This document shows, piece by piece, positions 14,801 to 17,800 of a DNA stretch of 64,000 bases. Each line of letters begins with the position of its first letter. The first letter of the stretch is position 1. Source of the stretch: Macrostomum lignano (taxonomy: Eukaryota); assembly GCA_002269645.1 (NCBI GenBank), contig NIVC01000003.1, forward strand, positions 428,368 through 492,367. Direction: 5' to 3'. The translations under genes and the position numbers were made by a program. The notes beneath the pieces are model-generated. The model did no database searches. It saw only the letters and a list, made by a program, of their open reading frames with translations, and was not told where the DNA came from.

Positions 14801-17800
14801 ATGCGCTTTCAGGCTGGATAATGACATCTTGCTGCAGAGTTACTTTCGGTAGTACTCGAATCTGGTTGATCAGCGGTTGCTCCACCGTGTCGATCCTAAA
14901 CGTTTGCTTGTTGAAGTCGAAGGTCAATGGTAGTTGAAGCTGCTTGAACGTGTCGATTCCAACGATGACGTCTTGGTTTGGTAGTCTGTCGATGATGTAC
15001 GTCGGGACCGTCAGCTGTTTATTAGCAATTTTCAAGTCGATATCTGCTTTTCCTAGGATGTTGAGTGAATGTCCTCCTGCTCCTGCAACTGCGATTGCTG
15101 CTGGTCGTACCGCGAGTCGTAGCTTGTTGCATAATTGTTGCGAGATGACTGTGATCGAGCTGCCTGAATCCAGTAGTGCTCGACATGGCAAGTTGTTGAC
15201 AATGACCTGAGCCATTGCTTTGCCAATCTCGGCGTGTAGCGTACAGACGTAGTTTTCCGGCCATTTTGGCTCGTGCTGTTCTGCTTGATAGTTGGGTGGT
15301 TGTATCCTTGGTGCCGTTGGTGTTGTCGGAATCGATGGATATAGCCGCGTTGCTAGTGTCGGTTGCCCTTGAACCTCACAATGTGCAGTTTCTGTTAGTT
15401 CTAAACTGTTGTCGCTTTCCGTTGTCGTTCTTTGCATTATGGCATTCACTGTCTTCTTAGCTCTTGGACAAGTTTGACTGAAGCACCGTACGATCGATGA
15501 AATGATGAAGATTGCCGTGACAATCCACACAATGCAAGCACCGTAGAAGATGAATCCTTGATAGAGACTGCCTCTTCCATTGAGCAGCTCCCAGAAGCTA
15601 TTTGTCCAAAATGATTTGATGGCGCTGTCCATTGAAACAAGGACGGGAAATCTTCCTGTCCCGGTTCCTTTGTCCTTTCTTGTGAACAGCTGGTGAATCA
15701 TCTTGCGTTGGGTGATGAACGCTTGCAAGAAGTCGTTGATCGTCCATCCTGGTGTTATCTCGTCAAGTTGGATATCGGCGAATGGCGTATACTTCGTTCT
15801 GTTGAATCGGATTTTCAAATCCTCCATGTCGTAGTTTTCGTCGACGATTACTTCCGGTTCTGTGACGTTTGCTGTCGTTCCAGTTGTTTTGATGACGTGT
15901 AGTGCATTGTCCAGTTGATAGTAGTTTACTGCCGTGGTGCAAGGTCTCGGTATTGCGGTGCCAACGATGATGTTGTGTACCGTGTCCAAGAATCCCTGAA
16001 TTCGTTTTCCTTCGTAGAACGCTTCAATCCTTGGCTTATCGTAGCAGGTTGTTGACGTGTTTGACGGCAAGATGTTAAAGTGCTGTATCGGCGTGCACTT
16101 GTATATCAACAGATGCTCGTATATTGGAACTGCCAAAACGTTCGTCATTCCGGTGATTTTACGAAAAGTCATCGTAGGGTTGACATAGTAGTTTTGTCTG
16201 GCATAATTTAAGTTGATTGCGTGCATTTTGCAAGTTAGCTGGACCAGTGTTCGATGCAAGTGGTTTAACTGGTTGTGTAGATTGTGATCCAAAGCCGTTA
16301 TCTTTGCTGACAACAGCCGGTTTGACACCAGTTTGGGACGTTCGATGTCACGTCGTCTTCTATTCTGTTTTTCTTGTTGCTGATACGTTCCATTGATGAT
16401 TGCCAAGAAGGTTTGTTTGTCTTCATCCTTTACGTAGACTGGTATCTCTTGTTCCGAGATGAATAGTGTCTTGTCTGTATCCTTGCATTTCAGTTTTTGC
16501 TCGACTGGTTTCTTTTGAAACGTCAGTGCCAAGTCTCCTGACTTTGCCAAAAACGTATTTGACAGTAGTCCTCCTTCAACTGTGTGATACTTTTGAAGCT
16601 TGCAGTCAATTTCCGGCTCAACTTCCCACGCGAAGAAGTATTGTCGTGATTTGTACGGTTCCTCATAGTGTGATTGTGCTCTGTGCTCAATCTGCCATCG
16701 ATAGTCTTGATGATATGTTGGACTCAGTGGTAGACTGTGTAGTTCTTCCTTCCGTAGAATCGGCGTTGGACACCATCCTTCACTGTATCGACATTCGCTT
16801 AGTTGCAGCTGTAACGATTCCATTTTCTCGTACGGATTGTAGTAGAATGGAATATTTCTGATCAAGTAGCTGTTGCGTGCCATATATTCTTTCCATTTTC
16901 CGAAGAAGTGAATATATCGACCGTTGGCTGAATTCTTTGTTCTGAACAGCTGTGCGTTGCCGACCTTCTCATCTGGTTCCAGTTCACCATCCTTTGAAAA
17001 TAGTGTTTGATTCCATTGTAGGCATTCCGCGTGCGACACATGTAGCTCATGTTGTTTAAATCGGATCCGGTTCCATTGTCCGCGCCAAACTTTTTCCACC
17101 AGGTGCTTGTCTCTGAAGCATACTATCCCGTGTTGTCGATGCTTCTTGATGTTAGCCTTGTAGAGATCGAGTGTAATCTTCTTTGGTTTTGTCTGGTTTG
17201 TCTTGAAGTAACTGCATTTGATGTCGGTTGGTATCTTGTAGATCATCGGTTGGATATGCGCATCCGTTGGACAAATCATTGGCTTTTCCGTTGCCGTTGC
17301 TTTGGCGACTACTGCTATCAGTAGTATCACGATGATCCAGAATAGCCAGTTTTTCCACTTCTTGGATTTTGCCGTTGTCCTTGCTGGCATTGGCTGCGAT
17401 CGCCATTCGTTATCTTCCATGTCCGCATCATATTCTTTCGGTTGTTCCATTGGCTGATCCAGGCGGAAGGCTTCTGATTCGCTTTGCTTTTTGGTTATTT
17501 CATTATCTTCGTCTGCGGCTTCTTCCGATGTTTCCGTTGTTTCACTCCATTGCGTTTGGTATCTTTTCTCTGTCTTGTAGTCGACCGTTTGAATATAGGC
17601 TTCACCATTTCGTTTGTATCGGATCTCGTAGCATTCGTCGCTGTCGGAACTCGGCTTTTCTTTCACCTGTTCTTTTTCCATTTCTTCATCTTTCCATTGT
17701 ATTTCGTAGCCTTGATCGCTGTCGGAACTTAGATTCTCCGCTCTCGGTTCTTCCTGCATTCCTCTTTCGGCTTGGTAGTCGTTCGTGTCATCACGCACCT

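What the first reader, a model, noticed from the sequence alone, without database searches (positions are those of the whole stretch)
15288..15344. Three ESCRT late-domain-type motifs clustered in the Env cytoplasmic tail
The tail reads TRLYPSIPTTPTAPRIQPPNYQ: an LYPx(I/L) ALIX-type motif, PTAP (TSG101) and PPxY (NEDD4-family) within 19 residues. These are the established viral budding motifs, normally found in Gag or matrix proteins. Their position behind the TM suggests glycoprotein-driven budding and supports release of enveloped particles.
Basis: partly seen in the sequence, partly recalled or inferred. Interest (0 to 1): 0.85.

Follow-up and report, generated by a model that had tools for sequence, protein, structure and literature searches.

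The report
Budding motifs in retrotransposon envelope tail
A young, multi-copy flatworm retrotransposon carries three classic virus-budding motifs just behind the membrane anchor of its herpes-gB-like envelope protein, and distant relatives keep such motifs at the same spot, so these elements likely recruit the cell's ESCRT machinery through the envelope tail rather than through the capsid protein as retroviruses do.

Summary
The motifs are real: LYPSI, PTAP and PPNY at 15344-15288 (minus strand). They are not in a free-standing env gene. They lie in one 2487-aa frame, Gag–TM1–gB-type Env–TM2–linker–protease–RT–RNase H–integrase, between identical 864-bp LTRs. The gene order is a published class (GAG-ENV-POL errantiviruses, PMC13524379); no late-domain terms occur in that paper's main text.

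24 of 25 distinct copies keep all three motifs while the wildcard positions drift. Across nine lineages in this genome the otherwise poorly conserved linker has P[ST]AP in 7 and YPx[LI] in 6 (expected 0.3 and 0.4). 18 of 51 external relatives carry a motif there (expected 3.1; decoys flat).

Against: 33 of 51 lack any motif, PPxY in the linker is family-specific here, the host UEV pocket has two substitutions, and no binding or particle is shown.

Verdict: a likely ESCRT-recruiting module on the Env tail of an Env–Pol precursor; a new variant of known late domains.

The parts
19919..20782 (-). 5' LTR, 864 bp, TG...CA
   Evidence: identical to the 3' LTR
19905..19916 (-). primer-binding site, 2 nt inside the 5' LTR boundary
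   Evidence: the same 12 nt and offset as the published row Mlig_errantivirus_2
11859..19322 (-). single 2487-aa frame Gag-Env-Pol (first Met at aa 41, 19202); its last ~20 codons differ from other copies (frame break in the integrase C-terminus)
   Evidence: compared with P0003; other copies have open frames of 2538 aa
18123..19202 (-). Gag with one CCHC knuckle (18456-18497); no Gly after the first Met
17289..17345 (-). TM1, predicted internal signal-anchor; basic on its N side, followed by an A-x-A signal-peptidase-like site
   Evidence: hydropathy and charge counts; cleavage inferred
15561..17282 (-). gB-type (class III) Env ectodomain, furin-type RRRR at 16350-16361, six N-glycosylation sequons
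   Evidence: family profile hits EBV gB at E 1e-14; Foldseek top hits are herpesvirus gB, E 3e-20 but TM-score 0.27; Pfam PF24664 E 8e-6, under its cut-off
15492..15557 (-). TM2, Env anchor; basic residues and Cys on its C side
15267..15491 (-). predicted cytosolic Env tail / linker, about 75 aa
15330..15344 (-). LYPSI, ALIX-type YPx[LI] motif (also fits YxxPhi)
   Evidence: kept in 25 of 25 distinct copies; the preceding residue is only L or M
15309..15320 (-). PTAP, TSG101-type motif
   Evidence: 24 of 25 distinct copies; P[ST]AP in 7 of 9 lineages
15288..15299 (-). PPNY, NEDD4/WW-type PPxY motif
   Evidence: 25 of 25 distinct copies, x = N, T, I or G; in the linker in only 1 of 9 lineages
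15258..15263 (-). conserved Trp-Pro, likely N-terminal cleavage site of the protease
   Evidence: 8 of 9 lineages, 31-38 residues before the catalytic Asp (printed values +1); enriched in external linkers, 16 vs 6.1; cleavage inferred
12123..15260 (-). Pol: protease, RT (YVDD), RNase H, integrase
   Evidence: Pfam; coordinates
11212..11625 (-). truncated RING-type passenger ORF (137 aa here, 235 aa in other copies)
11036..11046 (-). polypurine tract
10169..11032 (-). 3' LTR; 4-bp target-site duplication ATGT at 10165-10168 and 20783-20786

Best explanation
The three motifs lie between the Env membrane anchor and the protease of a single Gag-Env-Pol polyprotein and are likely late domains that would recruit host ALIX, TSG101 and a NEDD4-type ligase to pinch off enveloped retrotransposon particles. 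Shown: the motifs, the one-frame layout, the gB-like ectodomain, selective retention of the motifs, and host UEV, ALIX-V and HECT genes. Inferred: the polyprotein crosses the ER membrane twice; signal peptidase frees Env from TM1, leaving Gag tethered by TM1 (it has no myristoylation Gly); Pol is carried into the particle on Env's cytosolic side instead of on Gag; Env trimers present many motif copies at the bud; after release the protease cuts at the conserved W|P, leaving the motifs as the end of a ~75-aa Env tail. Motif type and order are interchangeable between lineages, as known for late domains.
For: Family level: of 50 loci fetched out of 95 matches, 43 aligned without gaps, giving 25 distinct sequences at 81-100% identity; 24 keep all three motifs. 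Motif-defining columns are invariant in 9 of 10 vs 29 of 63 other tail columns (Fisher p 0.01; copies are related), and the PPxY wildcard takes four residues. Genome level: nine lineages with Env C-half at 21-65% and linker at 22-30% identity to this one: P[ST]AP 7 of 9 (expected 0.26), YPx[LI] 6 of 9 (expected 0.38), each 0 of 20,000 shuffles; the order is swapped in the sister families. Controls on 8 of them: ectodomain 0 of 8 for all motifs, Pol not enriched. External: 18 of 51 linkers have a motif vs 3.14 expected (0 of 2000 shuffles); P[ST]AP 6 vs 0.46, PPxY 8 vs 1.07, YPx[LI] 7 vs 1.70; six decoy patterns flat. This holds with one representative per 35% cluster (12.2 of 29 vs 2.05, null max 7). 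Carriers include three nematode proteins. Proteins without an Env hit or upstream TM are not enriched before the protease (2 of 22 vs 1.14). In some relatives a Gag-Env frame ends just after the motifs (P0171, P0053). Host UEV, ALIX-V and HECT domains are present. UEV-tail model: weak support, score 0.39 vs best control 0.00, runs agree in at least 72% of contacts, partner pLDDT at least 48; that mark was reached by 51 of 78 solved and 2 of 108 mismatched pairs, but at 0.60 or under by only 5 of 78 solved and all 4 passing mismatches; PTAP-UEV is a solved textbook pair, so the pass may be from memory.
Against: 33 of 51 external linkers and 1 of 9 local lineages have no motif; 33 further Env hits were dropped for lack of a callable TM2, C-half or tail. 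A few external YPx[LI] hits sit at doubtful positions (first or last residues of the segment). The luminal control shows P[ST]AP in 4 of 51 ectodomains vs 0.5 expected, so shuffles understate P[ST]AP background somewhat. One intact sister-family copy has PNAP (L032) and one family copy PPAP (L045). Non-proline Yxx[LI] is also mildly enriched (27 vs 18.5, 31 of 1000), so part of the tyrosine signal may be endocytic. The host UEV differs from human at two pocket positions, Tyr63 to His and Phe142 to Val (alignment; pocket residues recalled). A NEDD4-type WW-HECT gene was not singled out. Lineages share ancestry, so counts are not fully independent.
Confidence: 0.68

Rival explanations
1. The motifs bind the same host factors but sort the Env(-Pol) membrane protein: ubiquitination and delivery into multivesicular bodies, either for degradation (limiting a fusogen and Pol made 1:1 with Gag) or as the route to an endosomal assembly site; the YP motif may double as a YxxPhi endocytosis signal.
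For: The motifs sit on a TM protein tail, like cellular cargo (knowledge: ENaC PY motifs). No slippery heptamer was found in frame and no canonical splice joint in contigs, so a 1:1:1 product may need post-translational control. Herpes gB is ubiquitylated and sorted to MVBs (PMC7995964, passages). Y[^P]x[LI] is mildly enriched.
Against: YPx[LI] is enriched about 4-fold vs 1.5-fold for non-proline forms, and dileucine signals are not enriched. P[ST]AP plus YPx[LI] together is the viral late-domain pairing (PMC7995964). Budding into MVBs would itself be ESCRT budding.
Confidence: 0.2
2. The motifs are a Gag C-terminal (p6-like) late domain left behind the Env when env inserted into the end of gag; same function, different origin, so they would not be an Env invention.
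For: The position just before the protease is that of HIV-1 p6 (recalled). PPxY occurs on the Gag side of TM1 in 3 of 8 lineages (expected 0.4, 4 of 1000; two are close relatives).
Against: Env-less protease hits show no enrichment upstream of the protease (2 of 22 vs 1.14, and both look like truncated Env-type linkers). Motif type and order vary, which suggests repeated gain. No outgroup tree was built.
Confidence: 0.08
3. Chance matches in a proline-rich disordered linker.
For: The motifs are short, and the linker is rich in Pro and Thr; P[ST]AP also exceeds shuffles in external ectodomains.
Against: Composition-preserving shuffles, flat decoys, wildcard-only drift and recurrence across lineages with poorly conserved linkers.
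Confidence: 0.04

Closest known systems
GAG-ENV-POL errantiviruses with HSV/gB-type ENV (Chary and Hayashi, PMC13524379), row Platyhelminthes_Rhabditophora_Mlig_errantivirus_2
   Same: Gene order, gB-type Env and multi-copy status; the row has the same 12-nt PBS and offset, an 864-bp LTR and LTR spacing 9727 vs 9750 here. A 99%-identical protein is labelled Macrostomum lignano. Most probably the same family.
   Different: The paper analyses ectodomains and Pol; its main text has no hit for late domain, ESCRT, budding, cytoplasmic tail, RING or single ORF.
Retroviral and filo/arena/rhabdoviral late domains (HIV-1 p6 PTAP + YPXnL, EIAV YPXnL, Ebola PTAPPEY)
   Same: Same three motif classes, found in combination, position-independent and exchangeable (PMC7995964, passages); they lie just before the protease, like p6 (recalled).
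   Different: Here they are behind the TM anchor of the fusogen, not in Gag or matrix; all three types lie within 19 residues; function is untested.
Bluetongue virus NS3
   Same: PSAP and PPxY outside a Gag/matrix protein (PMC7995964); a membrane protein (recalled).
   Different: NS3 is non-structural, belongs to a non-enveloped virus and is not a fusogen (recalled).
Drosophila gypsy/ZAM errantiviruses
   Same: Ty3/gypsy elements with env; gypsy Gag is non-myristoylated and carries a motif likened to that of EIAV; ZAM uses endosome/exosome routes (PMC3383448, passages).
   Different: F-type Env in a separate downstream gene; that 2012 review says ESCRT use is not known.

Membership tests
Ty3/gypsy LTR retrotransposon | two LTRs TG...CA, PBS, PPT, short TSD | tested here: met
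Ty3/gypsy LTR retrotransposon | domain order PR-RT-RH-IN with gypsy-type RNase H and H2C2 integrase; no BEL/Pao domains | tested here: met
   Pfam
Ty3/gypsy LTR retrotransposon | placement in an RT phylogeny | not tested
   no tree built; the matching published row was classed by its authors
GAG-ENV-POL gB-type errantivirus | env between gag and pol | tested here: met
GAG-ENV-POL gB-type errantivirus | ectodomain homologous to herpesvirus gB, flanked by two hydrophobic helices | tested here: met
   profile E 1e-14; Foldseek E 3e-20 on a pLDDT-64 model with low global TM-score; TMs
GAG-ENV-POL gB-type errantivirus | multiple near-identical copies | tested here: met
   18 of the 50 loci fetched are identical over the 151-aa query; identical LTRs
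viral late domain | matches P[ST]AP, PPxY, YPxn[LI] | tested here: met
viral late domain | in a cytosol-facing, unstructured segment of a particle protein | tested here: inconclusive
   predicted from hydropathy and charge only; not shown experimentally
viral late domain | conserved beyond its neighbours | tested here: met
viral late domain | binds TSG101, ALIX or NEDD4 WW domains | tested here: inconclusive
   weak model for host UEV only, 0.39 vs control 0.00
viral late domain | required for particle release | not testable with these tools
   needs experiments

The most novel reading that the evidence does not exclude
gB-type Gag-Env-Pol retrotransposons of flatworms and nematodes use an assembly plan unlike that of retroviruses: one polyprotein is threaded twice through the membrane, Pol is packaged as a fusion to Env's cytosolic side, and the fusogen's own tail carries interchangeable late domains that call in ESCRT, so scission is tied to the presence of both fusogen and polymerase.
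Probability: 0.45. Interest if true: 0.8.

Novelty: new variant of a known kind. Interest (0 to 1): 0.63.

Why it matters
How non-insect env-carrying retrotransposons leave a cell is open (PMC13524379 Discussion), and whether errantiviruses use ESCRT was stated as unknown (PMC3383448, 2012). Selected late-domain motifs are sequence evidence that gB-type Gag-Env-Pol elements form enveloped, budding particles. They also point to a placement, on the fusogen tail of an Env-Pol precursor, that I did not find described in my searches. The prediction can be tested with natural peptides and host knock-downs in a laboratory flatworm.

Tried and rejected
- Single-sequence fold of the ectodomain: pLDDT 29, useless; the 10-sequence alignment gave 64.
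- Word-index protein searches found only same-family proteins.
- Expression: no RNA holder listed. Contigs of four runs guessed to be RNA cover all 30 bins but show neither transcription nor a canonical splice joint; not used as evidence.
- No in-frame -1 slippery heptamer of the X XXY YYZ type.
- Host Hrs PSAP as an internal control: the Hrs helical domain was found, but the 10 kb upstream gave no P[ST]AP in a recognisable Hrs exon (one stray match) and no FYVE match; inconclusive.
- No tRNA gene in the window to type the PBS.
- (UEV vs polyprotein) was uninformative.
- BEL/Pao membership rejected: no Pao domains.
- Earlier scan notes: none.
- Literature: searches for late domain + ESCRT + LTR retrotransposon + PTAP, late domain + tail + envelope + PPxY + PSAP + retrotransposon, errantivirus + ESCRT, late domain + glycoprotein cytoplasmic tail + Tsg101 + budding and two Macrostomum searches listed no paper describing this; most were seen as listings only. 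The nematode paper cited as Sacco et al. 2022 was not held and could mention the motifs. Figures and five of seven supplements of PMC13524379 were not read.

Full report
Observation. The 57 bases translate on the minus strand to LYPSIPTTPTAPRIQPPNY. They lie at aa 1327-1345 of one 2487-aa frame, 11859-19322, and are the only P[ST]AP, PPxY and LYPx[LI] matches in it. All three arose in 2 of 200,000 shuffles of the 73-aa tail, and within 25 aa in 1 of 20,000 shuffles of the polyprotein. These tests are post hoc.

What the element is. Identical 864-bp LTRs (10169-11032 and 19919-20782), a 4-bp target duplication, a PBS and a polypurine tract define a young LTR element. Pfam gives a CCHC knuckle at aa 276, then protease 1372-1461, RT, RNase H and integrase. 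Between knuckle and protease lie two hydrophobic helices, aa 660-678 and 1256-1274, enclosing a 574-aa domain with a furin-type site and six sequons. A profile of ten natural ectodomains hits EBV gB at E 1e-14. The alignment-based model (pLDDT 64) returns herpesvirus gB as the top Foldseek hits (E 3e-20, TM-score only 0.27). The order is therefore Gag-Env-Pol in one frame. PMC13524379 (read: abstract, the first parts of sections 5, 6 and 9, term searches, rows of supplement 1, part 1 of supplement 2) describes GAG-ENV-POL gB-type errantiviruses in nematodes, bryozoans and flatworms. Its row Mlig_errantivirus_2 shares the PBS, LTR length and near-equal LTR spacing, and a 99%-identical protein is labelled Macrostomum lignano. 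The class is known; the paper's main text has no mention of late domains, ESCRT, budding or the tail.

The motifs are behind the Env anchor, but translation continues into Pol. Charges flank both helices as expected for Gag inside, Env outside, linker and Pol inside (prediction). A Trp-Pro follows the motifs in 8 of 9 local lineages, 31-38 residues before the catalytic Asp, and is enriched in external linkers (16 vs 6.1). Retroviral proteases begin at a Pro after an aromatic residue at a similar distance (recalled), so I infer that the protease cuts there and leaves the motifs at the end of a tail of about 75 aa. In P0171 and P0053 a Gag-Env frame ends just after such motifs, although breaks or truncation cannot be excluded there.

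Conservation within the family. The genome search gave 95 matches; I held 50 loci. 43 aligned without gaps, giving 25 distinct sequences at 81-100% identity. The seven left out were six sister-family loci and L049, which keeps all three motifs. 24 of 25 keep all three; L045 has PPAP. Motif-defining columns are invariant in 9 of 10, other tail columns in 29 of 63 (p 0.01, related copies). The PPxY wildcard reads N, T, I or G, and the residue before YP only L or M.

Conservation across lineages. An Env search found more distant Gag-Env-Pol lineages in the genome. In nine lineages whose linkers are only 22-30% identical to this one, P[ST]AP occurs in 7 and YPx[LI] in 6 (expected 0.26 and 0.38; 0 of 20,000 shuffles each), often in the opposite order. 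PPxY is in the linker in only 1 of 9 but on the Gag side in 3 of 8. Ectodomains have none and Pol is not enriched. One lineage has no motif, and one intact sister copy has PNAP.

External relatives. Of the 150 listed hits (198 in all), 84 outside the same-genome set matched the Env profile; 51 gave a usable segment after TM2 and 33 were dropped. 18 of 51 carry a motif against 3.14 expected, each class is enriched on its own, and six decoy patterns are flat. One representative per 35% cluster gives 12.2 of 29 against 2.05. Named carriers are from Caenorhabditis tropicalis, Acrobeloides nanus and Haemonchus contortus. Against the reading: 33 of 51 lack motifs, P[ST]AP is also above shuffles in luminal ectodomains (4 vs 0.5), and non-proline Yxx[LI] is mildly raised (27 vs 18.5). 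Protease hits with neither Env nor an upstream TM are not enriched (2 of 22 vs 1.14), which argues against a general p6-like remnant.

Host side. UEV, ALIX-V and HECT domains are present; a NEDD4-type gene was not singled out. The UEV aligns to human TSG101 at E 4e-44 and keeps most recalled pocket residues but has His for Tyr63 and Val for Phe142. A UEV-tail model gave weak support: 0.39 against 0.00 for the best of three controls, at least 72% shared contacts, partner pLDDT at least 48. Passes this low are more often wrong than right unless likely beforehand, and this is a textbook pair.

Mechanism. Most likely (0.68): the polyprotein is threaded twice through the ER membrane; signal peptidase releases Env from TM1; Gag, which lacks a myristoylation Gly, stays anchored by TM1; Pol rides on Env's cytosolic side; the clustered tails recruit ALIX, TSG101 and a WW-HECT ligase for scission; the protease then frees Pol. 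Every step after the sequence layout is inferred. The main rival (0.2) is ESCRT- or ubiquitin-dependent sorting and turnover of Env-Pol: no frameshift or splice signal was found to lower Pol output, and herpes gB is sorted to MVBs (PMC7995964, passages). A Gag-derived origin (0.08) and chance (0.04) are weaker.

Novelty. Late domains are known, combine and are exchangeable, and bluetongue NS3 carries them outside Gag or matrix (PMC7995964). A bunyavirus glycoprotein uses ESCRT without identifiable late domains (PMC9888203, passages). ESCRT use by errantiviruses was called unknown in 2012 (PMC3383448, passages). My searches listed nothing on late domains in the Env tail of these elements; a 2022 nematode paper could not be read. 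I file this as a new variant of a known kind, interest 0.63.

Noticed in passing
window 11212-11625 (-); L079-L086, L090: Between integrase and the 3' LTR this family and its sister families carry tandem paralogous RING-type ORFs of about 210-266 aa (two to five per locus seen). Pfam RING hits are mostly under the cut-off; the nearest Atlas clusters are mostly viral RING proteins, a weak lead. The first one in this family starts MGNALS or MGNAQS, myristoylation-like. The window copy has only one truncated 137-aa gene. These could be element-borne ubiquitin ligases.
   Followed up: partly
L051-L062, L066, L068, L070 (G000): Three related Gag-Env-Pol lineages have a 200-300 aa Thr/Pro-rich mucin-like insert between two furin-type sites in the gB ectodomain.
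   Followed up: no
window 17361-18122 (-): A 250-aa acidic, low-complexity spacer lies between Gag and TM1 and varies greatly between lineages; sister lineages carry PPxY on this Gag side.
   Followed up: partly
window near 11900-11980 (-): The window copy's frame diverges from other copies in the last part of integrase; it may be a real mutation or an assembly error.
   Followed up: no
window 1-3867 and 39602-43091: Inverted repeat arms of about 3.9 kb at 96-98% complementarity, 36 kb apart.
   Followed up: no
window 21935-24114: A palindromic element with nested inverted repeats and internal direct repeats around a 204-aa ORF (22430-23044, +), transposon-like.
   Followed up: no
window 46600-63900: A dense run of minisatellites with periods of 10-55 bp.
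   Followed up: no
G000:C2121, C1130, C87, C669, C2447: Several contigs hold two or more copies of this family within 10-30 kb, suggesting clustered insertions.
   Followed up: no
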